From positions 3,690 to 67,689 of the forward strand of contig JBGVTF010000248.1 in the NCBI GenBank assembly GCA_041862415.1: a stretch of 64,000 nt of DNA, given 5' to 3'. Shown here piece after piece: positions 12,791 to 58,211 of the stretch (the first letter of the stretch is position 1; the number at the start of each line of letters is the position of its first letter). This DNA is from Anaerolineae bacterium (GTDB taxonomy: Bacteria > Chloroflexota > Anaerolineae > E26-bin7). The notes below the pieces were generated by a model. The model was not told the origin of the DNA, did not search any database, and saw nothing but the letters and a program-made list of their open reading frames with translations. A program made the position numbers and the translations under genes.

Positions 12791-12899
12791 GCGACGCAAC
12801 CGCCCCCCGGGGCCGGGGTCCTTCTCTGGACAAAAGGGCCGAACTGTGCTAAACCTCTGGGTAGAGGCAGGCGCTTTCCTGGGCGCGAAAGGAGACGAA

Positions 12900-21046: not shown

Positions 21047-21069
21047 GGTGTCTTTGGATGAACCTTCAG

Positions 21070-21098
21070 TTGACAAGTGGGGATAATTATGCTATAGT
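21070..21098 (+). promoter_or_regulatory. Consensus promoter heading the ArsR cluster, embedded in AT-rich candidate operator DNA
   Basis: TTGACA (21070-21075), a 17-nt spacer, then TATAGT (21093-21098). The adjacent AT-rich ataattatgctatagttatattcgattattctaataag is atypical for this GC-rich genome. Confidence 0.7.
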
Positions 21099-21141
21099 TA
21101 TATTCGATTATTCTAATAAGGTTGCGAAGGGACGGTGGGAC

Positions 21142-21474
21142 ATGGAAACTCGTGCTTACAAGTGGCAGGCCAGAATGGCCAAAGCGCTGGCCCACCCCAC
21201 GCGCATCGCCATCCTGGAGATATTGCGTCGCGGGGAGATATGCGTCTGCGAGATGAGCCCCGAGTTGGGGGCCAGCCAGGCCAATGTCTCCCAGCACCTG
21301 GCTGTCCTGCGCGACAGCCACCTGGTGGCCGCGCAGCGCGAGGGCGCGCGGATGGTGTACCGTGTGACCGACGAGCGGGTGTTCCGAGTGCTGGACCTGA
21401 TGGGCTCCATCGCTCACAACCAGTTAGATGCGGCTCGCCAGGACCTTGCTGCCCTGGAAAGCGTTGCCGCTTGA
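21142..21474 (+). CDS. arsR: ArsR/SmtB-family metalloregulator with CVC motif
   Basis: LAHPTRIAILEILRRGEICVCEMSPELGASQANVSQHLAVLRDSHLV is a wHTH with the ELCVCDL-like type-1 As(III)/Sb(III) site. ATG 21142 is chosen over the longer track ORF. Confidence 0.88.
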   Translation: METRAYKWQARMAKALAHPTRIAILEILRRGEICVCEMSPELGASQANVSQHLAVLRDSHLVAAQREGARMVYRVTDERVFRVLDLMGSIAHNQLDAARQDLAALESVAA

Positions 21475-21483
21475 TAAATTAGC

Positions 21484-21551
21484 CATCAGCTATCAGCAAT
21501 CAGTCGTCAGCGATTAGACTGGTGCTGAAAGCTGACTGCTGATAGCTGAAT
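21484..21551. repeat. Inverted ATCAGC-type repeat (hairpin) after arsR
   Basis: atcagctatcagc (21485-) pairs with gctgatagctga (21538-). It belongs to the same motif family as 10533-10628. Confidence 0.6.
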
Positions 21552-21716
21552 GATTACTATTCGAGTAAACTTTCAACTGGAGGCAACCCAACAATGTCCA
21601 TTGCAGAATGGTTATTCCTGTTGTTCCAGTCAGGCTGGGTGAGCCTGCTGAACTAGTGGCCGCCCACGTGCTGTTGTGTCTGGTGCTGACCATCGCCGAT
21701 TGAAAAGGAGATTCAG

Positions 21717-21908
21717 GTGACTGAAGAGAAACAATGTAGTTGTATGAGGAACCCGTTTGCTGCTCTGCCGCCAGAAATGCAGCCCAAGCCCCAGAAGAAA
21801 AGTTCGCTGCGCAAAACGACCTGTCCTGGCTGTGGCCGCGAGTATTGGACTAATCGAAGCACTGACCTCTGTTTTGACTGCGAAAAGAAAGGCGTGAAAA
21901 CGCCGTAG
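21717..21908 (+). CDS. Small Cys-rich zinc-ribbon protein (63 aa)
   Basis: GTG start follows AAAGGAG. Contains CSC near the N-terminus and CPGCGREYWTNRSTDLCFDC. Confidence 0.55.
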   Translation: MTEEKQCSCMRNPFAALPPEMQPKPQKKSSLRKTTCPGCGREYWTNRSTDLCFDCEKKGVKTP

Positions 21909-21936
21909 TGCATCATGGCCGAGAGGGGAAGAAAGT

Positions 21937-23343
21937 TTGTCTGGCTCTTATGATCTTGTAATCCTGGGCGCAGGACCGGGCGGTTATGTGGCCGCGCTGC
22001 AGGCCGCCCAGCTCGATGCGCGCGTGGCTCTCGTCGAGAAAGATCGCGTAGGTGGGACGTGCCTGAACATCGGCTGCATCCCAACCAAGGCGCTGACGAC
22101 CTCTATGGATCTGTTCCTCAAGGCACGCCAGGCCAGCGAGTTCGGCGTGTCCATCCCGGACGCCCGACTTGACCTGCCGGCGCTGATGGTCTACAAACAG
22201 GCCGCTGTCAACAGGCTGGTGAACGGTGTGGAAGAACTGCTGAAGGAGCGCAAGGTCACGCTGGTGCGGGGTGAAGGTCACCTTGTCCGCCCGGACACGC
22301 TGCGCGTCACAGACGCTGCGGGGACTGCCGTAGAGATTTCAGCCCGGCACGTGGTCCTTGCGCCCGGTTCCGTCACGGCCCGACCGCCCATCCCTGGCCT
22401 GGATTTGCCAGGGGTGATGACCAGCACGGAGGCATTGGACATCACCGATGTCCCGGCACACCTGATCGTCATCGGTGGGGGCGTGATCGGGCTGGAATTT
22501 GCCTGCATTTACGAGGCGCTGGGCAGCCAGGTGACCGTCCTTGAGATGATGCCCACGCTGTTGCCCGGGGGGACAGATGAGGCGCTGGCCAAACGGCTGG
22601 CACTCCTCCTGCGGCGGCGTGGGCTGGCCATCCACACGGGCGCAACGGTGCAGGCTGTTGAACCGGCCGAAAATGGGTTGTGCGTTTCCTTTGACAAGGC
22701 CAAAGGTGAAGACTCTGTCGAAGGCGAGCGCGTCCTGGTGGCGATGGGCCGCTGGCCCAATACCGGTGACCTCGGGCTGGCCGAACTCGGCGTGAGAATG
22801 AATGGCCGCGCCATCGCTGTAGACGAGTACTTGAAGACAAACCTCCCCAATGTATGGGCCATCGGCGATGCGGTCGGTGGGATGATGTTGGCGCACAAGG
22901 CGATGGTTGATGGCCGTGTGGTGGCCGAGAACGTGACCGGTGGCCAGCGCGCGGTGGACTATCGCTCGGTGCCCAACGTAATCTTCGCCCGCCCCGAAGT
23001 CGCCAGTGTCGGCCTGACCGAAGCCCAAGCTCGCGCCCAGGGAGCGGACGTAAAAGTCACCAAGTTCCCGTTTTCGGCCAACCCGCGAGCCCAGACTCTG
23101 GGCGAGGCCGAAGGGCTGGTCAAACTGGTGTGTGAGGCCGGCAGCGGGCGCCTGCTGGGCGTCCACCTGATGGGGCCGCACGCCACCGACCTGATCGCTG
23201 AAGGCGCGCTGGCGGTGCAGGTGGGCGCTACGGCAGATGACCTGGCCTGGACCACGCACGCCCACCCGACCCTGCCAGAAGCTGTGCTGGAAGCCGCCCT
23301 CGGCTTCCGCGGCGCAATGATTCATTTTCACTCTCAGAGATAA
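21937..23343 (+). CDS. lpd: Dihydrolipoyl dehydrogenase (E3-type pyridine nucleotide-disulfide oxidoreductase)
   Basis: Contains the FAD motif GAGPGGY, the redox disulfide GGTCLNIGCIPTK and the C-terminal HAHPTLPEA His-Glu dyad. There is no MerA-type C-terminal CC. Confidence 0.92.
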   Translation: MSGSYDLVILGAGPGGYVAALQAAQLDARVALVEKDRVGGTCLNIGCIPTKALTTSMDLFLKARQASEFGVSIPDARLDLPALMVYKQAAVNRLVNGVEELLKERKVTLVRGEGHLVRPDTLRVTDAAGTAVEISARHVVLAPGSVTARPPIPGLDLPGVMTSTEALDITDVPAHLIVIGGGVIGLEFACIYEALGSQVTVLEMMPTLLPGGTDEALAKRLALLLRRRGLAIHTGATVQAVEPAENGLCVSFDKAKGEDSVEGERVLVAMGRWPNTGDLGLAELGVRMNGRAIAVDEYLKTNLPNVWAIGDAVGGMMLAHKAMVDGRVVAENVTGGQRAVDYRSVPNVIFARPEVASVGLTEAQARAQGADVKVTKFPFSANPRAQTLGEAEGLVKLVCEAGSGRLLGVHLMGPHATDLIAEGALAVQVGATADDLAWTTHAHPTLPEAVLEAALGFRGAMIHFHSQR

Positions 23344-23353
23344 GGAGACGATC

Positions 23354-23803
23354 ATGCCTGAGTTTCTTGAACTTACTGTAGACAAATTCACTTTCAGGAC
23401 CGCTACCGACCGGTACTACAACAGCGAAGGAGTGTGGGCGCTGGCCGAAAGCAACCGCGTTCGGATCGGCCTTTCGGACTTTTTGCAGCAAAGGAGCGGC
23501 GACGTAGCCTTCGCCGAGGTCAAGCCGGAAGGAACGGTGCTGGCTTTCGGTGACGAGGTGGCGGTGATCGAGACAATAAAAGCTGACGTTAGCCTGCCCT
23601 CACCGGTGGCCGGCAGGGTGGCCGAAGTTAACCCGGCCATGGATATGACGCCGGAGGCAATCAACCAGGACCCGTACGGCGAGGGCTGGCTGGCCGTGAT
23701 CGAGGCCAAGGATTGGGAATCCGACCGCGCCCGCCTGCTCGACCCGCAGGGCTATTTTGCCCTGGTGCAGGAACAGGCCGAGGAGGAGATGAAGAAGCTA
23801 TGA
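23354..23803 (+). CDS. gcvH: Glycine-cleavage H-like lipoyl carrier protein
   Basis: AAGGAG RBS. The lipoyl-lysine context VAVIETIKADVSLPSPVAGRV and the motif DPYGEGWL are present. No gcvT or gcvP lies nearby. Confidence 0.85.
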   Translation: MPEFLELTVDKFTFRTATDRYYNSEGVWALAESNRVRIGLSDFLQQRSGDVAFAEVKPEGTVLAFGDEVAVIETIKADVSLPSPVAGRVAEVNPAMDMTPEAINQDPYGEGWLAVIEAKDWESDRARLLDPQGYFALVQEQAEEEMKKL

Positions 23804-24222
23804 ATGATCGTAGACGAAAAGTCGTGATCGTGCCGTGCAGCGGCATCGGAAAAACCTACGGCACCGTGAGCCGCGAGGCGGCCTACGAGGTGACCGAGGA
23901 CATGCGCCCTGCCGACACGCAACTGGTGGCACTTTCCCTCCTGGTGTTGGGCGACGAGGAGGCGCGTGCGGCGGTGGCCGGGAACCCGGCGGTGACGATT
24001 GACGGCTGCAAGCTGGCCTGCGCGACCAAGATGGTGGAAGAGAGCGGCGGGACGGTGGCACAGGATTTGGCCGTGCTCGACGCTTACCGCCGCCATCGCC
24101 AGTTCAAGCCGCAGGGCATTGCCGAACTCAACGAGGGCGGGCAGAAACTGGCCCACGCGCTGGCGGAAGAAGTCGCCGCCGTCGTGGACAACCTTTCCGA
24201 AAATGGAGGAAAAGATGCCTGA
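23800..24222 (+). CDS. DGC-domain (putative zinc-binding) protein
   Basis: The start overlaps the gcvH stop (ATGA). Contains VVIVPCSGIGKTYG and TIDGCKLACA, the motif that names the DGC domain. Confidence 0.75.
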   Translation: MNDRRRKVVIVPCSGIGKTYGTVSREAAYEVTEDMRPADTQLVALSLLVLGDEEARAAVAGNPAVTIDGCKLACATKMVEESGGTVAQDLAVLDAYRRHRQFKPQGIAELNEGGQKLAHALAEEVAAVVDNLSENGGKDA

Positions 24223-24958
24223 TCTACCCAAGAAGAAAGTGGGAATCATAGCCTGTTCTGGTGAGGAGTTGCCGGAGGGCACTGTGACGCGAGTGGCCGC
24301 GTTGAAAGTCTTGGAGCAACTGCGCCCCGCCGACACGGTGACCATCTGCCTGCCGCTCTTTCTGGCCGGCGGGGAAGGGGATCGCGCTTTTGCTCGCTTC
24401 TATCCGACCGTTGCCGTGGACGGTTGCGACAAACGGTGCGCCGCCCGTGCTACCGAAATGTATTCCGGCAAACCGGCTGCCAGCGTCGTGGTGAGCGATC
24501 TGGTGGCCGAAAACGGGCTAGGGCGGATCGAGGGCAGCCGCACGTTGAACGAGGCCGGGCGAAAGGCCGCTGAGATCACGGCAGAACGGGTGGCGGGGCT
24601 AGTGGATGTGCTTCTGGGCAAACCGGCGGGCCGGTCCGCCGAGGCAGTCGTCGTGGAACCGGCCGAGGTGTCAGAACCGGAGGAAGAGGAGGCGGTGGTG
24701 GCCACCTGTGAGTGCGGGTCGGGCATCCCGGTGCAGAAGGTGGCCGTGAGCGGGCGGGTGGTCACGTTGATCGCCCTGCCGGCCATCTTCGAGCAGTTCC
24801 ACCAGGCCGGCAAACCGCCCGGTGACGGCACGGCACACGAGTTGCTGGAGGTGGTCAAGATCTACAACCCTATTCCTGGCGAAGAGGAGGAAGCGTACGC
24901 CAAGGCACTGCTGCGTGAATACGAGGCTTTCTACGAGAAACAGGAGGTCCCGGCATGA
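24215..24958 (+). CDS. DGC-domain protein fused to a C-terminal CxC module shared with 36030..36323
   Basis: Contains VGIIACSGEELPEG and VAVDGCDKRCA, then an acidic linker, then ATCECGSGIPVQKVAVSGRVVTLIALPAIFEQF...YAKALLREYEAFY. Confidence 0.75.
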   Translation: MPDLPKKKVGIIACSGEELPEGTVTRVAALKVLEQLRPADTVTICLPLFLAGGEGDRAFARFYPTVAVDGCDKRCAARATEMYSGKPAASVVVSDLVAENGLGRIEGSRTLNEAGRKAAEITAERVAGLVDVLLGKPAGRSAEAVVVEPAEVSEPEEEEAVVATCECGSGIPVQKVAVSGRVVTLIALPAIFEQFHQAGKPPGDGTAHELLEVVKIYNPIPGEEEEAYAKALLREYEAFYEKQEVPA

Positions 24959-25404
24959 GCCGCACCGCAACTTACCACACGACTGTCTCGTGGAAGGGGG
25001 AGCACTGGGGGCACATCGCCATGGGCAACGGTCCGGAGATGGATTTCTCCGCCCCGCCCGACGCCCAGGGCTACCCTGGCGTGCTGACCCCCGAAGACGC
25101 CTTCGTGGCCGCGGTCAACACTTGCATCATGATGATGTTCATCTGGGCCACGGAGCGGTTCAAGCTCAACCTGGTATCGTACACATGCCGTGCTGAGGGC
25201 ACCAAGTTGATCGAACTGGACCGGACGGAGATCTTTACCGACGTCCGCCTCTGGCCGGTTATCCAGGTTGCAGCGGGGGAGGAAGATCCAGCCGTCGTCG
25301 AAGCGCGTGTGCGTCGCGCCCTACAGGGAGCACAAAAGTACAGTCTGGTCGCTAATTCGATCAAGTCGGAGATCGTGGTCGAGCCGACGATCGAAGTGAA
25401 GTGA
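24955..25404 (+). CDS. OsmC/Ohr-family peroxiredoxin-like protein
   Basis: ATGA overlap with the upstream gene. Size and the motifs TPEDAFVAAVNTCIMMMF and AQKYSLVANSIK fit the OsmC fold. Confidence 0.7.
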   Translation: MSRTATYHTTVSWKGEHWGHIAMGNGPEMDFSAPPDAQGYPGVLTPEDAFVAAVNTCIMMMFIWATERFKLNLVSYTCRAEGTKLIELDRTEIFTDVRLWPVIQVAAGEEDPAVVEARVRRALQGAQKYSLVANSIKSEIVVEPTIEVK

Positions 25405-25433
25405 AAATCAATTCTATGATTAGGAGGCGTAAA

Positions 25434-25715
25434 TTGGCACTTAACATCAAGGTTCTGGGACCGGGGTGCATCAATTGTGAACGAGTTTCCCAAGTAGTGG
25501 TAGCTACTCTGGAGGAACTGGAAGCAGAGTTGGGCGATGATTGCCCCGAGGCTACCTTGCAACACGTTACCGACTTTGCTGAATTTGTGAGGTATGGCTT
25601 GATGTTCACGCCGGGACTGGTGGTCAACGAGAAGTTAGTCTGTGCCGGCCGCATCCCCACGCAAGCCGAGGTCCGGCAGTGGCTGACCTCAGCCGTGGCC
25701 GAAATCGAAGCCTGA
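25434..25715 (+). CDS. Thioredoxin_3-type small redox-active disulfide protein
   Basis: TTG 25434 lies 6 nt after AGGAGG, and an in-frame ATG at 25416 lacks an RBS. Contains NIKVLGPGCINCERV (CxxC) and GLMFTPGLVVNEKLVCAGRIP. Confidence 0.8.
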   Translation: MALNIKVLGPGCINCERVSQVVVATLEELEAELGDDCPEATLQHVTDFAEFVRYGLMFTPGLVVNEKLVCAGRIPTQAEVRQWLTSAVAEIEA

Positions 25716-25938
25716 AGGGTACAGGACACCGGGGGCAGCCGGGAAAGCGGGGAGAGCACAGTTGTCTTTGGTCTGTCCTGAGGACGCCATCAGCTTCCCG
25801 CCTAAGGAGCAGATCGTGGCTCTGGTCAAGGAACTGAGGGCGAAATACGTATCTGGATAAACGATGTGCCCCTGCCAGGTAAGCCCAGGGTTGGTAGTGG
25901 GTTCACCTGGTGGGGGCCGTCGCTGTGGGAGGTAAGCT

Positions 25939-26205
25939 ATGGACATCAAGGTGTTGGGGGATGGCTGCTATGGCTGCTTGCAGCTCGAGCTGCTGGTGGG
26001 TCAGGTGCTGGACGAGCTGGGACTCCCGACCTCGCTCCAGCGGGTAAGTGACCGCAAGGAGATGGATCGCTACCTGTTGAGCGAGCCGCCGGGCTTGGTC
26101 ATCAACGGCCAGTTGGTGATCGAGCGACGCCTGCCAACCAAAGAAGAACTGCATCGCTGGATCATGGACGCCCTAAGCTGGGAAGGACGTGTATGGGCGA
26201 CGTGA
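25939..26205 (+). CDS. Second thioredoxin_3-type small redox protein
   Basis: GGGAGG RBS. Contains MDIKVLGDGCYGCLQL (CxxC) and PPGLVINGQLV. Confidence 0.8.
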   Translation: MDIKVLGDGCYGCLQLELLVGQVLDELGLPTSLQRVSDRKEMDRYLLSEPPGLVINGQLVIERRLPTKEELHRWIMDALSWEGRVWAT

Positions 26206-27812
26206 GGAAAACTGCATTGCTGCTGACGCTGCTGTTGATCGGCGGAGGGCTTCTGTTGCCTGTGGCCCGGGCCGAGGAGCCGGTGGTCCGGGCTGTGCTG
26301 TTCTGGTCAAAGACCTGCCCCCACTGTCATGTGGTCATCAACGAGACGCTGCCGCCACTGCAAGCGAAGTATGGAGACCAATTGGAGATCGAGTTGATCC
26401 AGACCTCCGATCCAGCAGGGTATGAACTGTACCGGGCCACTCTGGAGGCGTATGGCGTCTCGCCTGACCGCCAGGGAGTGCCGGCGTTGTTCATCGGTGA
26501 TCACCACCTGATGGGTTCCGTGGAGATTCCCCAAATCCTGCCGGGACTGATCGAGCAATACCTGGCCGCTGGTGGGATGGACTACCCGGCCATTCCAGGG
26601 CTGGGGGCCGGGCCGAAGCTCATCCCCAATCATGCCGCCAACCCCACTCCGCGACCTACTCCGACCATCAAAGCTTGCCACATCTGTGATGAGGAAGAAC
26701 TGTCTTCCACGTCGATGCCAACTGCCGTGGCCGACGACGCACCGGCCATCCACCTGGCCTACTTCTACCAGCCTGGCTGCCGCGAGTGCGACCGGGTGCA
26801 ACTGGACCTGAACTACCTGCAACACCGTTACCCGCAGCTCGTCGTCCACGCCTTTGACGTCAAGGCGGAAGCGGCGCTGGCCGAATGGCTGGGAGAGCGG
26901 GCCGGATTCCCAGAAGAAGAGCGACTGACCGCCCCAGCGGTGTTCGTCAGCGACGAGGGATTGGTAGGCGAGGCGCTACACGCCCGCAGCTTGGAAGAGT
27001 TAATAGCCCGTCACGCCGCTACGGGCGCCGAGGCTGTGTGGGAGGGATGGGAGGCGGCCCGGAGCCAGGCAGCCGAGGGGATCATCGAGCGATTCCGCTC
27101 CTTCGGCCTACTGACGGTTCTAGCCGCCGGGCTGGTGGATGGGCTGAACCCCTGCGCCTTTGCCACTATCGTCTTTTTCATCTCGTACCTGGCCTTTGTG
27201 GGCCGCAAGGGACGGGAGATGCTGGCTGTGGGAGCCGCCTTTGCCCTGGCCGTGTTCCTGACCTATCTAGGCGTGGGGGTGGGGTTGCTCAAGTTCCTGG
27301 CGTCGCTGCCCTTCTTGGATGCCCTGAGCCGTTGGGTGTATGGACTGACGGCGACCCTGTGCCTGTTCCTGGCCCTCGGCAGCCTGCACGACTGGTGGCA
27401 GGCCCGTCGGGGCAAACCCGAGGAGATGCGCCTGAAACTGCCTGCCCACCTGCGACGCTGGATCAACCGGGTCATCCGGGAGGGGGCGGGGCTGCGGGCC
27501 TTCGTGCCGGTGGCCTTTGTCACCGGAGCGGTGATCTCGGTCATCGAGCTGGCCTGCACCGGCCAGGTCTACCTGCCGACCATCCTCTTTGTGTTGGGCG
27601 TGCCGGGTTTGCGGGTGCGGGCCAGGCTGTACTTGCTGCTCTACAACCTGATGTTCGTTCTGCCGCTGGTGGTGGTCTTCGTGCTGGCTTACTTTGGCAC
27701 CACCTCGCAGCAATTGGGCCAGTTCATCAACCGCCGGGCGGCGACGATCAAACTGGCCACGGCCGGGCTGTTCCTCTTGCTGGCCGGGTGGCTGGTGATG
27801 GCGTTGGTGTAA
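26193..27812 (+). CDS. Exported thioredoxin-like domains fused to a CcdA/DsbD-type transmembrane electron-transfer domain
   Basis: Signal peptide, then WSKTCPHCHVV and FYQPGCRECDRV CxxC motifs, then a 6-TM region with GLNPCAFATIVFFISYL and ELACTGQVYLP. Confidence 0.78.
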   Translation: MGDVRKTALLLTLLLIGGGLLLPVARAEEPVVRAVLFWSKTCPHCHVVINETLPPLQAKYGDQLEIELIQTSDPAGYELYRATLEAYGVSPDRQGVPALFIGDHHLMGSVEIPQILPGLIEQYLAAGGMDYPAIPGLGAGPKLIPNHAANPTPRPTPTIKACHICDEEELSSTSMPTAVADDAPAIHLAYFYQPGCRECDRVQLDLNYLQHRYPQLVVHAFDVKAEAALAEWLGERAGFPEEERLTAPAVFVSDEGLVGEALHARSLEELIARHAATGAEAVWEGWEAARSQAAEGIIERFRSFGLLTVLAAGLVDGLNPCAFATIVFFISYLAFVGRKGREMLAVGAAFALAVFLTYLGVGVGLLKFLASLPFLDALSRWVYGLTATLCLFLALGSLHDWWQARRGKPEEMRLKLPAHLRRWINRVIREGAGLRAFVPVAFVTGAVISVIELACTGQVYLPTILFVLGVPGLRVRARLYLLLYNLMFVLPLVVVFVLAYFGTTSQQLGQFINRRAATIKLATAGLFLLLAGWLVMALV

Positions 27813-27842: not shown

Positions 27843-28376
27843 ATGAGTGTGCTGATTGAAAACTATGACCTGGAAGTGACCACGCCCCCTTGCGATCCGG
27901 GGGTTGAGCGGTTCAATGCCATTGCCCGCTTGGTCGTGGACATTAGCGAGGTACTGCCTTACTTGAATGCCACCTGGAAGGGGGCCATCTATGACCACGG
28001 TGCGCACATTCTGGTCTGGCGCATGGGTGGCCGGGCGGTGACGGTGCAGCCCTACGAAATCGCCGTCAGCCGCCTGGAAGACCGCGAGGAGGCGACCCAG
28101 GTCATCGAGCGGCTGGTGGGCATGATCAACCGCACCTGGGAACGGCGGGACGAGATCGAGCCTAGTACCGCCAGGCGAGAGCGACTGCGAGCGCTGGACG
28201 TGTACAAACTACTGCCCGGCACCAACTGCAAAGCCTGCGGCCAGCCGACTTGTTTCATCTTCGCCAACAAGCTGGCCGCCGGTGAGGTGGAGGTCGAACA
28301 ATGTACCCCGCTCTTCACCGATACCTATCGGGAGAAGCGGGAGCAACTCCTGGCTTTGATCCAGGCAACAGTCTAA
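27843..28376 (+). CDS. Fe-S cluster-binding protein (PF04060-like C-terminal CX2CX4CX16C) with an N-terminal domain of unknown function
   Basis: LPGTNCKACGQPTCFIFANKLAAGEVEVEQCTPL is the Fe-S motif seen at RnfB/CdhC N-termini. The N-terminal ~100 aa are paralogous to 29993..30307. Confidence 0.7.
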   Translation: MSVLIENYDLEVTTPPCDPGVERFNAIARLVVDISEVLPYLNATWKGAIYDHGAHILVWRMGGRAVTVQPYEIAVSRLEDREEATQVIERLVGMINRTWERRDEIEPSTARRERLRALDVYKLLPGTNCKACGQPTCFIFANKLAAGEVEVEQCTPLFTDTYREKREQLLALIQATV

Positions 28377-28388
28377 CGGAGGACTCAC

Positions 28389-28700
28389 ATGAAAGAAGCT
28401 CGGATCGCATCCGGCTGGGCTAGGCAGTACATTCGGGAGCGCGGTGGAATCATCAACATTGCCACCCGTATGACTGTGGTGGACTGATGAACGGCCTACG
28501 AGACCCCATCAGGTCTGATGGGCAAGCCTGAAAACGAGCAAGATTACATCCGATTTATGGCGGAAGACATCGAGGTCTACCTGTCTAAAGAGATCTGGGA
28601 AGGGTTGGACCCCAAGGCTACGGAACTGCGGTTTGCCATTCCGGGGTATGGTCGGTTCTACCTGAAGTTCAACCCCGCCCGGTCTCGAGTGGCTGGGTAG
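28389..28700 (+). CDS. Predicted 103-aa selenoprotein with tandem in-frame UGA-UGA (Sec-Sec) at codons 33-34, HesB-like 'CC/Se motif'-type small protein
   Basis: ATG 28389 follows GGAGG (28378-28382) with a 6-nt spacer. The same frame continues through TGA TGA (28485-28490) into track ORF 28518..28700, whose ATG has no RBS. A SECIS-like hairpin lies 14 nt downstream, and a paralogous 3' fragment lies at 41035-41208. Confidence 0.6.
28505..28522 (+). promoter_or_regulatory. Candidate bacterial SECIS hairpin
   Basis: A perfect 7-bp stem CCCAUCA/UGAUGGG carries the apical loop GGUC. CA-GGUC-UG is identical to the apex of the E. coli fdhF SECIS as I recall it. The loop begins 21 nt after the second UGA. 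Confidence 0.5.
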
Positions 28701-28770: not shown

Positions 28771-29904
28771 TTGAAAATGTCACAAACAACAGCGAAAGTT
28801 GAAGTTCTGGACAGGGAAGTCAGTGTCGTCAAGCGGCTGTCGCTGCTGGACCGCTTCCTGCCCCTGTGGATCTTTCTGGCTATGGCCGTGGGGGTAGGAT
28901 TGGGCTACGTCTTCCCCGGCATCGCCACCGCCTTTGATGCCCTGCGCATTGACACGGTGTCGTTGCCCATCGCCATCGGCCTGCTGTGGATGATGTATCC
29001 CGTGCTGGCCGAGGTCAAGTACGAGGAACTGGGCAAAGTGGCCACAGCCTGGAAGATGTTCAGCGTCTCGGCCGTGCTGAACTGGGTCATCGGCCCGGTC
29101 ATTATGTTCATCCTGGCCTGGGCCTTCTTGCCTGATCTGCCCGAGTATCGCACCGGGCTGATCATCGTCGGGCTGGCCCGCTGCATCGCCATGGTGCTGA
29201 TCTGGAACATGCTGGCCGAGGGCGACGCCGAGTACTGCGCGGTGTTGGTGGCCCTCAACTCGGTGTTCCAGATCATCATGTACAGCCCGCTGGCCTATCT
29301 CTATCTGCGGGTGATACCGGGCTGGTTCGGGGCCGACACGGCCGCCGTGGGCGTGACCATGTGGGACATCGCCAAGAGCGTGCTCATCTTCCTGGGCATC
29401 CCGCTGGCGGCAGGTATCATCACTCGCTTCAGCCTGATCCGGCGGCGAGGGCAGGAGTGGTACGAGACCAGGTTCATGCCCAAGCTGGGGCCGACGGCCA
29501 TCATCGGGCTGCTGTTCACCATCATCGTCATGTTCAGCATGAAAGGCGAGGTGATCGTTACCCTGCCGCTGGACGTGCTGCGGATTGCCATCCCGTTGGT
29601 GGTTTACTTCGGGTTGATGTTTGCCGTGGCTTGGGTGGTCGCGTGGCTGTTCCGCTTCCCCTACGCCGACACGGCCACCCAAAGCTTTACGGCGGCCAGC
29701 AACAACTTTGAGCTGGCCATCGCCGTGGCCGTGGGAGCCTTTGGTATCGCTTCGGGGCAGGCGCTGGCCACGGTGGTCGGACCGCTGATCGAGGTGCCGG
29801 TGCTGATCGGGCTGGTGTACGTGGCGTTGTGGGCCAGGCGTTTCTTCTTCAGGCCGGATGGCACGGCGAAGCGAAAGCTGGCGGCCGCTGAGATAGCAAG
29901 CTAG
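28771..29904 (+). CDS. acr3: ACR3-family arsenite/antimonite efflux transporter
   Basis: Begins with LSLLDRFLPLWIFLAMAVGVGLGYVFP and has about 10 TM helices. The start may be TTG 28771 or ATG 28777. Confidence 0.9.
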   Translation: MKMSQTTAKVEVLDREVSVVKRLSLLDRFLPLWIFLAMAVGVGLGYVFPGIATAFDALRIDTVSLPIAIGLLWMMYPVLAEVKYEELGKVATAWKMFSVSAVLNWVIGPVIMFILAWAFLPDLPEYRTGLIIVGLARCIAMVLIWNMLAEGDAEYCAVLVALNSVFQIIMYSPLAYLYLRVIPGWFGADTAAVGVTMWDIAKSVLIFLGIPLAAGIITRFSLIRRRGQEWYETRFMPKLGPTAIIGLLFTIIVMFSMKGEVIVTLPLDVLRIAIPLVVYFGLMFAVAWVVAWLFRFPYADTATQSFTAASNNFELAIAVAVGAFGIASGQALATVVGPLIEVPVLIGLVYVALWARRFFFRPDGTAKRKLAAAEIAS

Positions 29905-29992: not shown

Positions 29993-30307
29993 ATGCTACT
30001 GCATGGCTTCACTGTCACTCATGTCCTGGACTGCCTGGCCGACCCGAGCAAGGACCGGGTCATCGCCGAGCTCTCGGACGACGTGTCGCCAGTGTTTCCC
30101 TATCTCAACGCCGTCGTACCCAACTTGATGTACAATCCCGGTGCCAACTCGGTGACCGTGGAGCGAGAATGGCGCATCCTGACGTTCTACCCGCACGTGG
30201 CGGTGATGGACAAGGTGGATGGTAACGGGCTTCTGAAACTAGAGAGAGGAGATGCGCATGCCAAACAGACCAGGTACGGCAGGCAGCAGCCGCTGTGCCC
30301 GGAGTGA
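29993..30307 (+). CDS. Paralog of the N-terminal domain of 27843..28376, lacking the Fe-S module (possibly a decayed copy)
   Basis: AELSDDVSPVFPYLNAVVPNLMYNPGANSVTVEREWRILTFYPHVAV aligns with ARLVVDISEVLPYLNATWKGAIYDHGAHILVWRMGGRAVTVQPYEIAV. The C-terminus is unrelated. Confidence 0.5.
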   Translation: MLLHGFTVTHVLDCLADPSKDRVIAELSDDVSPVFPYLNAVVPNLMYNPGANSVTVEREWRILTFYPHVAVMDKVDGNGLLKLERGDAHAKQTRYGRQQPLCPE

Positions 30308-33148: not shown

Positions 33149-33891
33149 CTGCTTTGAATGAAGCCCTTCAGCGCGACGAGCCCGTGGCCCTGGCCACCGT
33201 GGTGGAGGTGCAAGGCGCTTCTCCGGCCCAGGTGGGTTTCAAGCTGCTGGTACGGCCTGACGGCAGCGTCGTGGGCAACCTGGGCGGCGGGGCGCTGGAG
33301 CAGCGGGTACGGGAGGAGGCGGTGACCGCCTTGCGAGAGGGGCGGTCTCGCCTGGTCCACTACACCCTGCGCGAGGAGGGTCCCAACGCGGTGGGAATGC
33401 TGTGCGGCGGCGAGGTCACAGTGTTCGTCGAGGTCTACCGACCGGCTCCCATCCTGCTCATCGTCGGCGGGGGACACATCGGCCAGCCGCTGGCCGAGAT
33501 GGCCCGCATCGTCGGCTTCAACGTCCAAGTGATGGACGTGCGCCCGGAGCGGGCCACGGTGCCCCAACTCGACCCGGCAGCCATCACCCCGCAGACCTAT
33601 GTGGTGCTCATCACCGAGGATCACGTCACTGACGAGCAGGCGCTGCGCCAGGTGCTCGACACACCGGCGGCCTACGTGGGCATGATCGGCAGCCGGCGCA
33701 AGGCGAGCATTGTCTTCGATCACCTGCGGGCTGAGGGAGTGTCCGAGGAGCGGCTGGCTCGCGTCCACGCCCCCATCGGGCTGGACCTGGGTGGACGCTC
33801 GCCGGCCGAGATCGCCCTGGCCATTCTGGCCGAGGTGGTGCAGGTGCGCTATGGCGGGACAGGGACGTCGTGCATGTCGAAGGGGGGATAA
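33133..33891 (+). CDS. XdhC/CoxI-family molybdenum-hydroxylase accessory protein
   Basis: Contains ALATVVEVQGASPAQVGFKLLV..DGSVVGNLGGGALE, a Rossmann-like LLIVGGGHIGQPLA, GMIGSRRK and IHAPIGLDLGGRSPAEIALAILAE. Confidence 0.85.
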   Translation: MREIITALNEALQRDEPVALATVVEVQGASPAQVGFKLLVRPDGSVVGNLGGGALEQRVREEAVTALREGRSRLVHYTLREEGPNAVGMLCGGEVTVFVEVYRPAPILLIVGGGHIGQPLAEMARIVGFNVQVMDVRPERATVPQLDPAAITPQTYVVLITEDHVTDEQALRQVLDTPAAYVGMIGSRRKASIVFDHLRAEGVSEERLARVHAPIGLDLGGRSPAEIALAILAEVVQVRYGGTGTSCMSKGG

Positions 33892-33893
33892 CT

Positions 33894-34082
33894 ATGTGGC
33901 GAAACTATCTGTTTCCCGGCTCGGTAGAGGAAGCACCAGAGATGCTGACCACCTACGACGGCGGGGCTCACCTGATCGCTGGAGGCACCGACCTGATTCT
34001 GGAGCTAGCGGTGGGAGTGCGGCTGGAAAGGCTAGTGGCCACGGCGGAGAGGGTTCTGATGGAGATGAAACGACCTGGATAG
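33894..34082 (+). pseudogene. N-terminal fragment of a CoxM/XdhB-type FAD-binding subunit
   Basis: MWRNYLFPGSVEEAPEMLTTYDGGAHLIAGGTDLILEL matches the start of molybdopterin-dehydrogenase FAD-binding subunits. The ORF ends after 62 aa. Confidence 0.6.
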
Positions 34083-34156
34083 GCAAGCGGTCACTCTGCA
34101 TGTCGTTGGGTAATGGATTTCAGGTGAAGGCAAGGTGCGCGCACGTGGAGGATAAG

Positions 34157-35386
34157 ATGCTGGTGGGTAAGAGCGGCGATCTGCGGCTGCCGGAGGAATT
34201 ACGCCGTCGGTGGGGGCTGGCACCTAGCGCGGAGGTTCTGATTCGGGAAACGCCTGAGGGGTTGTTCCTACGTCCGGCAGACCCACCGCTGGCCAAAGTC
34301 TACGTCGAGCCAACCACAGCCTGCAACCTGCGCTGTCGCATTTGCGTGCGCAACTCCTGGAGTGAACCGGTGGGGTCTATGGAGATGGCGACATACCGAC
34401 GACTGCTAGACGGGCTGCGGGAAGTGCCGTCGCTGCGCAAAGTGGCCTTCTGGGGATTCGGTGAACCGCTGCTGCATCCCGACATCGTGGAGATGGTGGC
34501 GCTGGCCAAAGAACTGGGAGCAAAGACAGAGTTGATCACCAACGGCCTCTTGTTGGACAGGGAGATGGCTGAGGGGCTGGTCATGGCCGGGCTGGACACG
34601 CTCGTCGTCTCAGTGGATGGGACCTCGCCGGAATCCCACGCTGACATCAGGTCGGGCGCTGACTTTCGCCTGGTGCAGGAGAACGTGGAGGGCCTGCACG
34701 CCGTGCGTCGCGCGAACTCTCGTGACAACCCGGAGATTGGCCTCGAGTTCGTTGTCACGCGACGCAACGTATCCGAACTGCCGAACCTGCATCGCCTGGC
34801 CTACTCGTTGGAGGCGAGCTTTGTCGTCGTGACGAACGTGCTGCCCTACACCGAAGAGTTCAAAGAAGAGATTCTCTACTGGCTGGCGACTGGCAGTTAC
34901 CCGCTGGCGCGCTCCAAATGGTCCCCGGAGATCGTGCTACCACGGATAGACGCGCGTCGCGAGTACCTGGAACCGCTGCTGGGGCTGTTGCGGCAGGGCG
35001 GAGTCATTGACCCTCTGCCAAGGCGTTCTGACGGGGCAGAGGGCTATTGTCGCTTCGTGGGGGAAGGGGCAGTAGCCATCGCCTGGGATGGCGAGGTGAG
35101 TCCCTGCGTTGCACTGATGCACTCCTACACGTGCTACGTCCTGAGACGAGAGAAAGTGATTCGGCGCTACACACTGGGCAACGTCGGCCGGGAAGAGATC
35201 ACACGCATTTGGGATCGCGATGAGTACGTGCAGTTTCGGGCGCGGGTACAGCAGTTCGACTTTTCGCCGTGTGCCCACTGCGGCGGTTGCCAGTTGGCCG
35301 AATCCAACGAGGAGGACTGCTTTGGCAACCAGTTCCCGGTCTGCGGGGACTGTCTGTGGGCCAGAGGGATCATCCTGTGTCCCTGA
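34157..35386 (+). CDS. Radical SAM/SPASM-domain enzyme with N-terminal AbrB/SpoVT-like domain
   Basis: ATG 34157 follows GGAGG. It has an AbrB-like LRLPEELRRRWGLAPSAEVLIRETPEGLFLRP, the radical SAM motif CNLRCRIC, and a Cys-rich SPASM-like C-terminus (CVALMHSYTC ... CAHCGGCQLAESNEEDCFG ... CGDCLWARGIILCP). Confidence 0.85.
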   Translation: MLVGKSGDLRLPEELRRRWGLAPSAEVLIRETPEGLFLRPADPPLAKVYVEPTTACNLRCRICVRNSWSEPVGSMEMATYRRLLDGLREVPSLRKVAFWGFGEPLLHPDIVEMVALAKELGAKTELITNGLLLDREMAEGLVMAGLDTLVVSVDGTSPESHADIRSGADFRLVQENVEGLHAVRRANSRDNPEIGLEFVVTRRNVSELPNLHRLAYSLEASFVVVTNVLPYTEEFKEEILYWLATGSYPLARSKWSPEIVLPRIDARREYLEPLLGLLRQGGVIDPLPRRSDGAEGYCRFVGEGAVAIAWDGEVSPCVALMHSYTCYVLRREKVIRRYTLGNVGREEITRIWDRDEYVQFRARVQQFDFSPCAHCGGCQLAESNEEDCFGNQFPVCGDCLWARGIILCP

Positions 35387-35506
35387 GTGACTATCGTGCG
35401 TAGCTCCCGGTACTGTCGGATCAGCCTACTGGTCACTGCCGGCAGGAACGTGGCATCCCCTGAAGATGCCGTGAACTGCCCGAACCAGGTGAATCTGGAG
35501 AGAGTG

Positions 35507-35653
35507 ATGAAGAAAGCGTTAGTCGTGCCCTTGACCTATGAGGAATTGTTGGACCTGTGTCGCATCCTGCTTGACCGGGACGAGAAGGACGCCCTGCGTT
35601 TCTTGGACGAACACGTCAAGAAGCCAGCTAACGAGGTCGTGGAGGGCGGTTGA
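35507..35653 (+). CDS. 48-aa helical peptide of unknown function
   Basis: ATG 35507 follows GGAGAG. The product is MKKALVVPLTYEELLDLCRILLDRDEKDALRFLDEHVKKPANEVVEGG, ending in Gly-Gly. It lies directly 3' of the radical SAM gene. Confidence 0.4.
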   Translation: MKKALVVPLTYEELLDLCRILLDRDEKDALRFLDEHVKKPANEVVEGG

Positions 35654-35739
35654 AAGGTGCTCATCCAGGTGCCCGGGGCGGGCGTCAAGGAGGTCGCCGG
35701 GAGTCGCCTGTTTTGACTCTGGCAGCGGACGAAAGGTCT

Positions 35740-58178: not shown

Positions 58179-58211
58179 TTTTGGATCCTCCTGTGATTTG
58201 TTTGATAGGGG

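What the first reader, a model, noticed from the sequence alone, without database searches (positions are those of the whole stretch)
28389..28700. ORF split in the track reads as one small protein with two adjacent in-frame UGA codons (Sec-Sec) plus a SECIS-like hairpin
The track lists only 28518..28700 (60 aa). An ATG at 28389 with a GGAGG Shine-Dalgarno (28378-28382, 6-nt spacer) opens the same frame, runs 32 sense codons and reaches TGA TGA (28485-28490). It then continues in frame through ATG 28518 (which has no SD) to the TAG at 28698-28700. Fourteen nt after the second UGA there is a perfect hairpin CCCAUCA-GGUC-UGAUGGG (28505-28522), and its apex CA-GGUC-UG is identical to the apex of the E. 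coli fdhF SECIS as I remember it. The composite 103-aa product is MKEARIASGWARQYIRERGGIINIATRMTVVD-U-U-TAYETPSGLMGKPENEQDYIRFMAEDIEVYL... Its layout is that of HesB-like small proteins in which a CC pair sits at exactly this position. I recall an NCBI family named 'CC/Se motif family (seleno)protein' but cannot verify membership here. The gene lies inside a thiol-redox/arsenic cluster. Tandem Sec residues are rare, and two adjacent UGAs served by one SECIS would be mechanistically interesting.
Basis: partly seen in the sequence, partly recalled or inferred. Interest (0 to 1): 0.85.

Follow-up and report, generated by a model that had tools for sequence, protein, structure and literature searches.

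The report
Tandem-selenocysteine gene in arsenic operon
What is annotated as a 60-aa ORF is very probably one 103-aa protein read through two adjacent UGA codons as selenocysteine-selenocysteine, and the same arrangement recurs in every relative found across several phyla, usually inside arsenic-resistance operons.

Summary
With U→C the product passes NCBIfam NF041239 (40.9 vs 40 bits); neither half does. All 72 unique relatives whose DNA I read (33-96% identity; Chloroflexota, Bacillota-like and others) have TGA TGA at the same position. The hairpin is always 14 nt downstream and shows covariation (A-U/G-U/G-C, no A·C). Purifying selection runs through the linker in one frame. Eight lineages have no start codon that could make the C-terminal half on its own. 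A sister Anaerolineae genome carries a canonical Sec-FdhA 3 kb from its copy. No Cys form was found. The predicted fold is IscA/HesB-like, with the UU pair at a β-hairpin tip. The gene travels with Acr3, ArsR, ArsD/ArsA and ArsE-type thioredoxins. Not shown: Sec machinery in this genome, and selenium in the protein. The family is catalogued, but the accessible literature lists it with one Sec and lists no bacterial UU motif.

The parts
28378..28382 (+). Shine-Dalgarno GGAGG, 6 nt upstream of the start codon
   Evidence: Read directly. GGAGG/GAGG-type sequences precede the start in relatives.
28389..28700 (+). Full coding sequence of the 103-aa tandem-Sec protein (MKEARIASGWARQYIRERGGIINIATRMTVVD-U-U-TAYETPSGLMGKPEN...RVAG, stop TAG)
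   Evidence: Translation. NF041239 scores 40.9 bits across residues 11-70 only when the two halves are joined. One-frame purifying selection: pN/pS is 0.17 (N-terminal part), 0.21 (linker), 0.13 (C-terminal part).
28485..28487 (+). First in-frame UGA (codon 33), proposed Sec
   Evidence: Invariant in 72 unique relatives. C at this position adds 3.9-4.7 bits to the NF041239 score.
28488..28490 (+). Second in-frame UGA (codon 34), proposed Sec
   Evidence: Invariant in 72 unique relatives. C here adds 1.4-2.2 bits.
28491..28504 (+). 14-nt spacer between the second UGA and the hairpin (codons T-A-Y-E and the start of T39)
   Evidence: The length is invariant in all 68 unique 84-nt segments. Synonymous third-position changes occur in frame.
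28505..28522 (+). SECIS-like hairpin: 5' arm 28505-28511 CCCAUCA, loop 28512-28515 GGUC, 3' arm 28516-28522 UGAUGGG; translated as (T)PSGLMG
   Evidence: Free energy -9.9 kcal/mol. It meets all four published bSECIS criteria for both UGAs, with the loop 21 and 24 nt away. 96.3% of cells are paired versus 29-41% in slid controls; pair 4 is AU 45/GU 12/GC 8. RNAalifold recovers the core. The apex 8-mer is identical to E. coli fdhF.
28518..28700 (+). The 60-aa ORF that gene callers report; it is the C-terminal part of the protein, and its ATG lies inside the 3' arm of the hairpin
   Evidence: The equivalent codon is ACG (not a start) in 9 unique relatives.
27843..28376 (+). Upstream neighbour: 177-aa protein with a PF04060 Fe-S domain; co-occurs with the UU gene in 33 loci
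28771..29904 (+). Downstream neighbour: ACR3 arsenite efflux transporter
   Evidence: TIGR00832 441.6 bits vs cutoff 282.8. An Acr3-like gene lies next to the UU gene in 40 loci.
21058..27812 (+). Rest of the co-directional cluster: ArsR 21058-21474, dihydrolipoyl-dehydrogenase/MerA-like flavoprotein 21937-23343, GcvH-like 23354-23803, two DGC-domain proteins (about 23800-24222 and 24215-24958), OsmC 24955-25404, two MTH895/ArsE thioredoxin-like proteins 25401-25715 and 25939-26205, and a 539-aa Grx/Trx membrane protein 26193-27812
   Evidence: The same genes are syntenic with the UU gene in other contigs.

Best explanation
Window 28389-28700 is a single gene for a small (103-aa) selenoprotein with two adjacent selenocysteines at positions 33-34.

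Proposed mechanism:
1. Translation starts at AUG 28389 behind a GGAGG Shine-Dalgarno (shown by sequence).
2. When UGA-33 reaches the A site, the hairpin at 28505-28522 lies 17 nt downstream (loop 24 nt). It is still folded outside the ribosome and presents its GGUC loop to SelB·GTP·Sec-tRNA(Sec), which inserts Sec (inferred by analogy with E. coli fdhF).
3. After a 3-nt translocation, UGA-34 is in the A site with the same hairpin 14 nt away (loop 21 nt). A second SelB ternary complex must load on the same SECIS and insert the second Sec (inferred). The absolutely invariant spacing across the family suggests that this 21/24-nt window is what allows one element to serve both codons.
4. The ribosome then melts the hairpin and reads it as P-S-G-L-M-G.

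The product has a predicted IscA/HesB-like fold, with the Sec-Sec dyad at the tip of a β-hairpin. Because the gene is embedded across phyla in ars operons (ArsR, Acr3 or ArsP, ArsD/ArsA, ArsE-type thioredoxins), the most likely role is a vicinal diselenol/diselenide site. It would bind arsenite or another soft metalloid, or relay reducing equivalents, for the resistance system. This would be functionally analogous to the Cys12-Cys13 pair of ArsD or the C-terminal CC of MerA.

My confidence is about 0.85 for 'one polypeptide made by Sec-Sec recoding' and about 0.45 for the arsenic-binding role.
For: Sequence anatomy is exact.

One polypeptide:
- The joined product passes NF041239 at 40.9 vs 40 bits, aligned across the UGAs. 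The halves alone give no hit and 19.5 bits.
- TGA TGA is invariant in 14 close sequences, including 9 species-level Anaerolineae/Chloroflexota genomes. It is also invariant in 73 metagenome loci down to 33% identity, in two distant loci found independently by protein search, and in L110 and L112.
- pN/pS is 0.17 / 0.21 / 0.13 for the N-terminal part, linker and C-terminal part in one frame.
- In 8 of 72 unique sequences no start codon exists before codon 63.

RNA element:
- Codons 41-44 are invariant at the nucleotide level among the close relatives. Family-wide, TCA/GGT/CTG are strongly preferred over their synonymous alternatives.
- The hairpin position is invariant. The loop is GGUC in 57 of 68 and always GGNN.
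- At pair 4 there are no A·C combinations: the Pro codon's silent base covaries with a Met→Thr change (Fisher 6e-6, not corrected for phylogeny).
- 58 of 68 members meet all four published bSECIS criteria for both UGAs.

Genetic code and Sec use:
- UGA is an ordinary stop here: 34 of 65 ORFs in my rough gene map end in TGA, including full-length AsnRS, DnaX and GcvH.
- Sec decoding occurs in the lineage: L032 has FdhA with ...CARL-U-HAPT..., TIGR01591 904.8 bits, and a GGUCU-loop hairpin 18 nt after the UGA, 3 kb from its UU gene.
- Chloroflexota include very selenoprotein-rich genomes (PMC13326102).

Fold: AF2 pLDDT 88.8. The top 9 PDB matches are all IscA/SufA/HesB-like/DsrR.

Context.
Against: - No selA, selB, selC or selD was seen in the window or in 590 kb of related loci, so Sec capacity of this particular genome is not shown.
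- No Cys-containing homolog (CC, CU or UC) was found in three protein searches and one exhaustive search. The usual Cys/Sec pairing that validates a selenoprotein is therefore missing for this clade.
- The NF041239 score is marginal, and relatives scatter from 18.8 to 50.7 bits.
- The model's Cys columns are offset by one residue from UU.
- Covariation rests on one fully compensatory pair plus two wobble pairs. The hairpin overlaps a conserved peptide, so RNA and protein constraints are partly confounded.
- Ten AT-rich members fail the -7.5 kcal/mol criterion in my simple implementation.
- From my own knowledge of the E. coli system, Sec insertion competes poorly with RF2 and is sensitive to spacing. 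Two successive insertions from one element are therefore not obviously efficient.
- The arsenic role rests on gene neighbourhood only.
Confidence: 0.85

Rival explanations
1. These are two independent small genes (32 aa and about 60 aa). A genuine tandem stop ends the first, and the second is translated by re-initiation or coupling at ATG 28518.
For: This is how every gene caller annotates it. Tandem stops are a known fail-safe. ATG 28518 exists, and ATG or GTG is common at codons 35 or 44 in relatives.
Against: There is no SD before 28518, and that ATG is buried in the hairpin's 3' arm. The 9-codon linker between the stops and 28518 is conserved as protein in the same frame (pN/pS 0.21), with silent third-base changes. 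It contains the most conserved peptide of the whole family, AYxxPSGLxGKPE. Codon 44 is ACG in 9 unique sequences, and 8 of 72 have no possible start before codon 63. The family HMM aligns across the junction, and neither half reaches the cutoff alone.
Confidence: 0.03
2. The two UGAs are read through as a standard amino acid (Trp, Cys, Gly or Arg), either by a reassigned genetic code or by hairpin-stimulated near-cognate suppression, and not as Sec.
For: Some public gene calls translate relatives as ...GWW... using a TGA=Trp table (P0070-P0076 and P0051). One relative is labelled as from the Patescibacteria group. No Cys forms are known, so chemistry at the site is unconstrained by comparison.
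Against: In this window TGA terminates about half of the ORFs, including full-length housekeeping genes. The family spans GC-rich Chloroflexota and AT-rich Bacillota-like contigs that use standard stops. The WW calls are artefacts of code choice on short contigs: L110 and L035 do not translate to those proteins under table 11. The conserved element has the SelB-type GGUC/GGNN loop at bSECIS spacing and shares its apex with fdhF. A relative's genome uses the same kind of element for a bona fide Sec in FdhA.
Confidence: 0.05
3. The tandem UGA acts mainly as a selenium-gated attenuator. Most ribosomes terminate and release a 32-aa peptide, and the full-length protein is made only when Sec-tRNA is abundant, so the biologically important output is the switch rather than the diselenol.
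For: From my knowledge of the E. coli system, each Sec insertion competes with RF2, so two in a row should multiply the loss. The first UGA is necessarily followed by U, a strong termination context in E. coli. The N-terminal 32 residues are themselves well conserved (pN/pS 0.17).
Against: This is a variant of the main explanation and not exclusive of it, since it still requires Sec-Sec decoding. The predicted fold needs both halves: strand 20-30 pairs with strand 34-43 in one β-hairpin, so a free 32-mer is unlikely to be a folded product. There is no evidence on yields.
Confidence: 0.05
4. The gene is a decaying pseudogene, or the TGA TGA results from a sequencing or assembly error.
For: On a single sequence, an internal double stop in a small ORF looks like decay.
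Against: The identical feature appears in independent assemblies from JGI, ENA, Logan and NCBI, across 33-96% identity, and with purifying selection on both sides.
Confidence: 0.01

Closest known systems
[quoted passage not shown]
   Same: Both are small proteins of about 90-100 aa. The window product (U→C) scores 40.9 bits vs cutoff 40, aligned over residues 11-70. Relatives carry the precomputed PF28096 label. The Cys/Sec motif lies in the same loop.
   Different: The 2026 review lists this family with one Sec and motif CxxU (PMC13188914 Table 1). Here there are two adjacent Sec in every member examined, and no Cys form was found. The clade straddles the model cutoff at 18.8-50.7 bits. The model's Cys columns align to residues 32-33, one residue off the UU pair. 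I could not read the NCBIfam or Pfam curators' text, so they may already note UU.
E. coli fdhF SECIS / SelB-dependent UGA recoding
   Same: Both have a hairpin in the coding region just downstream of the UGA, a GGUC tetraloop, and an identical apex 8-mer CAGGUCUG. Both fit the published bSECIS model.
   Different: fdhF has one UGA with the loop 18 nt away and a bulged U in the stem. Here two adjacent UGAs are 24 and 21 nt from the loop of a perfect 7-bp stem without a bulge, and one element would have to be used twice in succession.
A-type Fe-S carrier fold (IscA/SufA/HesB; and the HesB-like selenoprotein family TIGR01911)
   Same: The top nine Foldseek PDB matches to the AF2 model are IscA, SufA, HesB-like AQ_1857 and HI1723, and DsrR (prob 0.98-0.47, TM 0.43-0.45). 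hhalign gives a collinear 69-column alignment that puts the first Sec on IscA Cys35 within ...SGCSGMAY... / ...GUU-xAY.... HesB-like proteins are an established selenoprotein family with Sec in this region (PMC13188914 Table 1).
   Different: There is no significant sequence similarity: no Pfam hit, no PDB sequence hit, and hhalign E = 0.21. The C-terminal CxC cluster ligands of IscA are absent. The genomic context is arsenic resistance, not Fe-S assembly.
ArsD arsenic metallochaperone and other vicinal-cysteine metal sites (MerA C-terminal CC; CC/CU motifs of the SAO/HgcAB systems)
   Same: All use an adjacent chalcogen pair as a soft-metal or metalloid ligand. The UU gene sits directly beside arsD-arsA-arsA in L112 and beside Acr3 or ArsP elsewhere. 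Haft & Gwadz argue that CC/CU motifs mark heavy-metal handling (bioRxiv 10.1101/2022.07.06.499078).
   Different: No homology to ArsD was detected. The pair here is Se-Se rather than S-S or S-Se. The comparison is functional analogy by inference only, and the ArsD Cys12/Cys13 statement is from my own knowledge.

Membership tests
NCBIfam NF041239 CC/Se motif family (seleno)protein | Whole-protein HMM score at or above the curated cutoff (40 bits) | tested here: met
   40.9 bits, E 1.6e-10, residues 11-70 on profile 9-68/91, with U→C. This is marginal. Relatives score 50.7 (L035), 36.3 (P0076), 35.0 (L091), 30.1 (L062) and 18.8 (L036).
NCBIfam NF041239 CC/Se motif family (seleno)protein | The Cys-Cys (or Sec-containing) motif coincides with the model's conserved Cys columns | tested here: inconclusive
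   Cys scan on an AA background (34.8 bits): C32 +7.1, C33 +3.9, C34 +1.4, other positions about +1. A CC shifted one residue left scores +3.8/+3.9 in two different members. The first U lies on a Cys column and the second does not, unless there is a one-residue indel at the hairpin tip.
NCBIfam NF041239 CC/Se motif family (seleno)protein | Small single-domain protein of about 90 aa | tested here: met
   103 aa versus a 91-position model.
Pfam PF28096 CC_Se_fam | Match to the Pfam model | not testable with these tools
   The model is absent from the local Pfam copy: there is no hit for the composite or for P0024. Precomputed labels exist for relatives P0024, P0051, P0070-76 and others.
Bacterial SelB/SECIS-dependent selenoprotein | In-frame UGA conserved in homologs, with coding conservation on both sides | tested here: met
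   TGA TGA is present in 72 of 72 unique sequences. pN/pS is 0.13-0.21 on both sides and in the linker.
Bacterial SelB/SECIS-dependent selenoprotein | [quoted passage not shown] 2A) | tested here: met
   In the window the loop is GGUC, the stem 7 bp, the spacing 21 and 24 nt, and the energy -9.9 kcal/mol. 58 of 68 unique family members pass for both UGAs.
Bacterial SelB/SECIS-dependent selenoprotein | Cys-containing homologs with Cys aligned to the UGA | tested here: not met
   No CC, CU or UC form appears among 26 + 44 + 68 protein hits or 85 DNA loci. The only indirect support is the Cys preference of the NF041239 profile. The metagenome scan pattern overlapped the hairpin and would be biased against Cys forms; the protein searches were not biased in this way.
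Bacterial SelB/SECIS-dependent selenoprotein | selA, selB, selC (tRNA-Sec) and selD in the same genome | not testable with these tools
   None is in the 64-kb window or the fetched loci. Indirect evidence: a Sec-FdhA on the same contig as the UU gene in sister MAG L032.
Bacterial SelB/SECIS-dependent selenoprotein | Selenium demonstrated in the protein | not testable with these tools
   This needs an experiment.
HesB/IscA A-type carrier family (PF01521; TIGR01911 for the selenoprotein form) | Significant sequence match to the family model | tested here: not met
   There is no Pfam or NCBIfam hit other than NF041239. A profile search of PDB sequences finds no IscA. hhalign vs E. coli IscA gives E = 0.21.
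HesB/IscA A-type carrier family (PF01521; TIGR01911 for the selenoprotein form) | Same fold | tested here: inconclusive
   The nine best Foldseek matches all belong to this fold, with probability up to 0.98. However, E is 4e-3 at best and TM is 0.43-0.45. The model is confident (pLDDT 88.8).
HesB/IscA A-type carrier family (PF01521; TIGR01911 for the selenoprotein form) | Three conserved cluster-ligand cysteines (Cys35 and the C-terminal CxC of E. coli IscA) | tested here: not met
   The family alignment has no conserved C-terminal Cys. Only the UU pair is invariant.

The most novel reading that the evidence does not exclude
This is an obligate Sec-Sec protein family. One SECIS hairpin, held at an invariant distance, recodes two consecutive UGA codons. 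The resulting vicinal diselenol, on an IscA-like scaffold, is a dedicated arsenite-binding (or other soft-metalloid-binding) or redox component of ars operons in anaerobes of several phyla. That would be both a natural case of back-to-back SelB-dependent recoding and a direct molecular link between selenium and arsenic resistance. Neither appears in the accessible literature, which lists the family with a single Sec and unknown function.
Probability: 0.4. Interest if true: 0.85.

Novelty: new variant of a known kind. Interest (0 to 1): 0.72.

Why it matters
Mechanism: bacterial Sec insertion is understood as one SECIS serving one UGA at a tuned distance. A natural, conserved UGA-UGA pair served by one hairpin makes several questions directly testable. 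How fast does SelB reload on a SECIS? How much spacing tolerance does the system have? How is release-factor competition beaten twice in a row?

Chemistry: adjacent Sec residues would give a vicinal diselenol/diselenide, a very low-potential and very thiophilic site. The 2026 inventory of 119 prokaryotic selenoprotein families lists none with a UU motif.

Biology: the tight and phylum-spanning association with Acr3, ArsP, ArsD-ArsA, ArsR and ArsE-type thioredoxins points to an unrecognised selenium-dependent component of arsenic resistance in anoxic sediments, digesters and similar habitats.

Annotation: the gene is systematically split into a 32-aa and a roughly 60-aa 'hypothetical protein', or mistranslated as WW, in public MAGs and protein collections. 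The family and its abundance are therefore largely invisible.

Tried and rejected
- The search of protein representatives and structure prediction refuse edited sequences, so the U→C composite could not be submitted. I worked around this with the exact 69-aa post-UGA segment and with the database's own 'WW' full-length calls.
- Rfam finds no family at gathering or permissive thresholds.
- ARAGORN finds no tRNA or tRNA-Sec in the window or in 49 loci.
- SelD and SelB probes, taken from my memory of the E. coli sequences, give no tblastn hit in 590 kb. Size-matched window ORFs turned out to be GlmS, Lon, a FemAB-like protein and others.
- Word-indexed protein searches with the window composite and with its clade profile found only close, truncated relatives.
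- Alignment A2 was too diverse for pattern derivation.
- The profile from A2 lost the N-terminal half and gave only spurious PDB hits. The full-length profile A7 gave no PDB or Pfam relation.
- The window-only MFE fold (a nested structure, z = -1.17) was rejected because the E→V substitution breaks it in other lineages.
- Literature searches for tandem UGA, Sec-Sec or adjacent Sec in bacteria, and for ars-operon selenoproteins, found nothing relevant. Haft & Tolstoy 2025 (PMC12013261) is not held. BSepDB has no supplements held.
- A second candidate read-through in the window, the radical-SAM/SPASM gene 33710-35386 followed by an in-frame ORF, was rejected. The protein ends with a canonical SPASM C-terminus and there is no hairpin (z = 0.06).
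- Frameshift or bypass was considered and rejected. The +1 frame runs into UGA inside the hairpin, and the codon before the UGAs varies (GAC, GGU, GGG, GGC, GAU, ACC and others), so no take-off/landing pair is conserved.
Full report
**1. The observation**

- GGAGG lies at 28378-28382, followed by a 6-nt spacer and ATG at 28389.
- There are 32 sense codons, then TGA TGA at 28485-28490.
- The frame stays open to TAG at 28698-28700.
- A perfect hairpin, CCCAUCA-GGUC-UGAUGGG, lies at 28505-28522 and begins 14 nt after the second TGA.
- Mechanical ORF listing reports only 28518..28700 (60 aa).

The fdhF sequence matches 5,419 E. coli genomes at 100% within fdhF, and it shares the apex 8-mer CAGGTCTG, including the GGUC loop, with the window.

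Taken alone, the window hairpin is only moderately unusual. In this window 7 of 2,009 UGA triplets have an equally strict hairpin, and 7.1% pass the generic bacterial SECIS model. The minimum-free-energy fold of the isolated window sequence is also a different, nested structure. The case therefore rests on comparison with relatives.

**2. One gene, not two**

With U written as C, the joined 103-aa product hits NCBIfam NF041239, 'CC/Se motif family (seleno)protein'. It scores 40.9 bits against a curated cutoff of 40, and the alignment runs from residue 11 to 70, across the two UGAs. The N-terminal half alone gives nothing and the C-terminal half alone gives 19.5 bits.

In a 5.8-billion-protein collection, all close relatives are called as 56-62-aa C-terminal pieces or 32-aa N-terminal pieces. 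I read their DNA.
- Fourteen unique close sequences all have TGA TGA in frame. They include nine species-representative Anaerolineae/Chloroflexota MAGs.
- Codon-level comparison shows purifying selection in a single frame through all three segments. pN/pS is 0.17 for codons 2-26, 0.21 for the linker (codons 35-43) and 0.13 for codons 47-90.
- Synonymous divergence is depressed around the UGAs and the hairpin (pS 0.15-0.22, against 0.33-0.48 elsewhere).
- Codons 41-44 (TCA GGT CTG ATG) are invariant at the nucleotide level in this close set.

**3. The feature is family-wide**

An exhaustive HMMER search with the exact 69-aa post-UGA segment found 44 more distant relatives at 36-60% identity. 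Nearly all are 50-77 aa long, and many start at the residue right after the second UGA (M/V-AY-xx-PSGL...).

DNA for two of them again shows TGA TGA. L036 is GC-rich and sits next to a rhodanese gene. L035 is AT-rich.

A metagenome scan returned 73 loci spanning 33-96% identity, and every one has TGA TGA at the same aligned position.

A last protein search seeded with AT-rich members gave 68 hits. The seven 'full-length' ones read ...GWW.... These are TGA TGA translated with a TGA=Trp table, which I verified on L110.

No CC, CU or UC form was found anywhere. My metagenome pattern (PSGLxGKP) overlaps the hairpin and would be biased against SECIS-less Cys forms. The protein searches were not biased in this way.

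**4. The RNA element**

In 68 unique 84-nt segments the hairpin always starts 14 nt after the second UGA.
- The loop is GGUC in 57, GGAU in 8, and GGCU, GGCC and GGUU once each.
- Stem pair 4 is A-U in 47, G-U in 12 and G-C in 9, and never A·C.
- In coding terms, the silent third base of the Pro codon (CCA/CCG) covaries with a Met→Thr replacement (AUG/ACG). Fisher p = 6e-6, not corrected for phylogeny.
- On the 65-sequence alignment, 96.3% of cells are paired, against 29-41% when partners are slid by 1-3 columns. One pair has double changes in 8 sequences and two pairs have wobble changes.
- RNAalifold independently predicts the 5-bp core.

[quoted passage not shown] The window element passes for both UGAs, with the loop 21 and 24 nt away and dG -9.9 kcal/mol. 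So do 58 of 68 unique family members. The failures are an AT-rich clade with a 5-bp stem and two sequences with a wobble or mismatch.

**5. Rival readings**

*Re-initiation at Met44.* This fails across the family. Codon 44 is ACG in nine unique sequences. In 8 of 72 there is no in-frame ATG, GTG or TTG until codon 63 or later. Yet residues 35-62 include the most conserved peptide of the family.

*Code reassignment.* This fails because TGA ends 34 of the 65 ORFs in my rough gene map, including full-length AsnRS, DnaX and GcvH.

*Pseudogene or assembly error.* This is excluded by recurrence in independent assemblies under purifying selection.

*Frameshifting or bypass.* This has no conserved substrate. 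The codon before the UGAs varies, and the +1 frame hits a UGA inside the hairpin.

**6. Sec-decoding capacity**

The window has no tRNA genes and no Rfam hit. Its size-matched ORFs are not SelA, SelB or SelD. SelD and SelB probes find nothing in 590 kb of fetched sequence. For this genome the point is therefore untestable here.

A scan of the larger loci for other interrupted genes did find one in L032, an Anaerolineae MAG whose UU protein is 84% identical to the window's.
- About 3 kb downstream of the UU gene lies a 135 + 561-aa ORF interrupted by TGA at ...NNVDHCARL-U-HAPTVAGL....
- With U→C it is a full-length formate dehydrogenase alpha (TIGR01591, 904.8 bits against a cutoff of 666).
- It has a GUGGCC-GGUCU-GGCCAC hairpin whose loop starts 18 nt after the UGA, the same spacing as E. 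coli fdhF.

So at least a sister species decodes Sec and uses the same loop type. Chloroflexota are also documented to include very selenoprotein-rich genomes (PMC13326102).

**7. What the protein is**

AlphaFold2 was run on the database's own full-length call P0070 (WW in place of UU) with a 34-row alignment. The model is confident (pLDDT 88.8, pTM 0.78). The dyad sits at the tip of a β-hairpin between strands 20-30 and 34-43.

The nine best PDB matches all belong to one fold: IscA, SufA, HesB-like AQ_1857 and HI1723, and DsrR. Probability reaches 0.98, but E is 4e-3 at best and TM is 0.43-0.45.

Sequence methods do not see the relationship. hhalign against E. coli IscA (sequence verified) is not significant (E = 0.21). 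The C-terminal CxC ligands of IscA are absent.

**8. Relation to NF041239**

The clade straddles the model's cutoff: L035 50.7, window 40.9, P0076 36.3, L091 35.0, L062 30.1 and L036 18.8 bits.

Mutational probing of the profile shows strong Cys preference at window positions 32 (+7.1 bits) and 33 (+3.9 bits), and little at 34 (+1.4 bits). In HMMER's ungapped alignment the family's CC therefore overlaps the UU pair with a one-residue offset. The cause is either a one-residue indel at the hairpin tip or a real shift of the dyad.

[quoted passage not shown] It gives the motif as CxxU with one Sec. None of its 119 families has a UU motif; the multi-Sec entries are UxxU, UxxxxU, or separate CU sites (PMC13188914 Table 1). 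I could not read the curators' own family descriptions, so they may already know of UU members.

**9. Context and likely function**

In the window the gene lies between a PF04060 Fe-S protein and an ACR3 arsenite efflux transporter (TIGR00832, 441.6 bits). It is at the end of a co-directional cluster of ArsR, a dihydrolipoyl-dehydrogenase/MerA-like flavoprotein, a GcvH-like protein, two DGC-domain proteins, OsmC, two MTH895/ArsE thioredoxin-like proteins and a Grx/Trx membrane protein.

Across the fetched loci the UU gene co-occurs with the following:

| Neighbour | Loci |
|---|---|
| ArsE-type thioredoxins | 57 |
| Acr3 | 40 |
| PF04060 Fe-S protein | 33 |
| OsmC | 32 |
| ArsR | 28 |
| DGC-domain proteins | 27 |

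The AT-rich clade keeps ArsR-Acr3-UU. L110 has ArsR-ArsP-UU-thioredoxin. L112, from NCBI assembly GCA_021083345.1, has ArsR-Acr3-phosphoesterase-UU-ArsD-ArsA-ArsA.

I infer a vicinal diselenol/diselenide site that binds arsenite or a similar soft metalloid, or relays electrons, for the resistance system. This is by analogy with vicinal Cys pairs in ArsD and MerA (my own knowledge) and with the CC/CU motifs Haft & Gwadz link to heavy-metal handling. This step is inference from neighbourhood only.

**10. Verdict**

What is really there is a member of a widespread, systematically mis-annotated family in which two adjacent UGAs and one SECIS at fixed spacing are invariant, embedded in arsenic-resistance operons. 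It belongs, marginally, to a catalogued family and uses a known recoding mechanism. The obligate tandem Sec, the apparent absence of Cys forms and the ars association are not in the accessible literature. I therefore rate it a new variant of a known kind, with high but not top interest. The main gaps are direct evidence for Sec machinery in this genome and for selenium in the protein.

Noticed in passing
L032:13403-15496 (+), TGA at 13808: A canonical Sec-containing formate dehydrogenase alpha (..DHCARL-U-HAPTVAGL.., TIGR01591 904.8 bits). It is split by gene callers into 135-aa and 557-aa ORFs, has a GGUCU-loop SECIS 18 nt after the UGA, and lies 3 kb from the UU gene in an Anaerolineae MAG.
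   Followed up: yes
window 29993-30307 (+): A 104-aa ORF that resembles the N-terminal domain of the upstream PF04060 Fe-S protein (27843-28376) but lacks the Fe-S motif. It has no family hit. Similar sequences co-occur with the UU gene in 16 loci. It may be a paralogous partner domain or a remnant.
   Followed up: partly
Public protein ids P0070-P0076 and P0051; loci L035, L110, L111: Gene callers applied a TGA=Trp table to short AT-rich contigs. As a result, public protein collections hold 'full-length' members of this family with WW where the DNA has TGA TGA. This annotation artefact could mislead homology-based work.
   Followed up: yes
window 33710-35958 (+): A radical-SAM/SPASM protein with an N-terminal AbrB/MazE-like domain ends in TGA and is followed in frame by an open stretch. 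I checked it as a possible second selenoprotein and rejected it (canonical SPASM C-terminus, no hairpin). Just downstream is a glutaredoxin-like protein whose active-site motif reads CPYT rather than CPYC.
   Followed up: partly
window 21937-24958 (+) and syntenic loci (L001, L062, L065, L068): A GcvH-like lipoyl-carrier protein, a dihydrolipoyl-dehydrogenase/MerA-like flavoprotein and two DGC-domain proteins form a conserved module upstream of the ars/thioredoxin genes. This may be a lipoyl-based reductant supply for the cluster. Its function is unexplored.
   Followed up: no
window 12846-13901 (+) and 19756-20958 (+): Two proteins with long Pro/Thr-rich (PTPT...) linkers. The first was missed by my composition-based gene map and left an apparent 2.3-kb gap.
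   Followed up: partly
window 57117-59060 (-): Two adjacent ORFs (282 and 364 codons, the second counted from just after the TGA) are in the same frame and separated by a TGA. My first interrupted-gene scan flagged them, but they did not pass the SECIS filter. They are probably just neighbouring genes.
   Followed up: no
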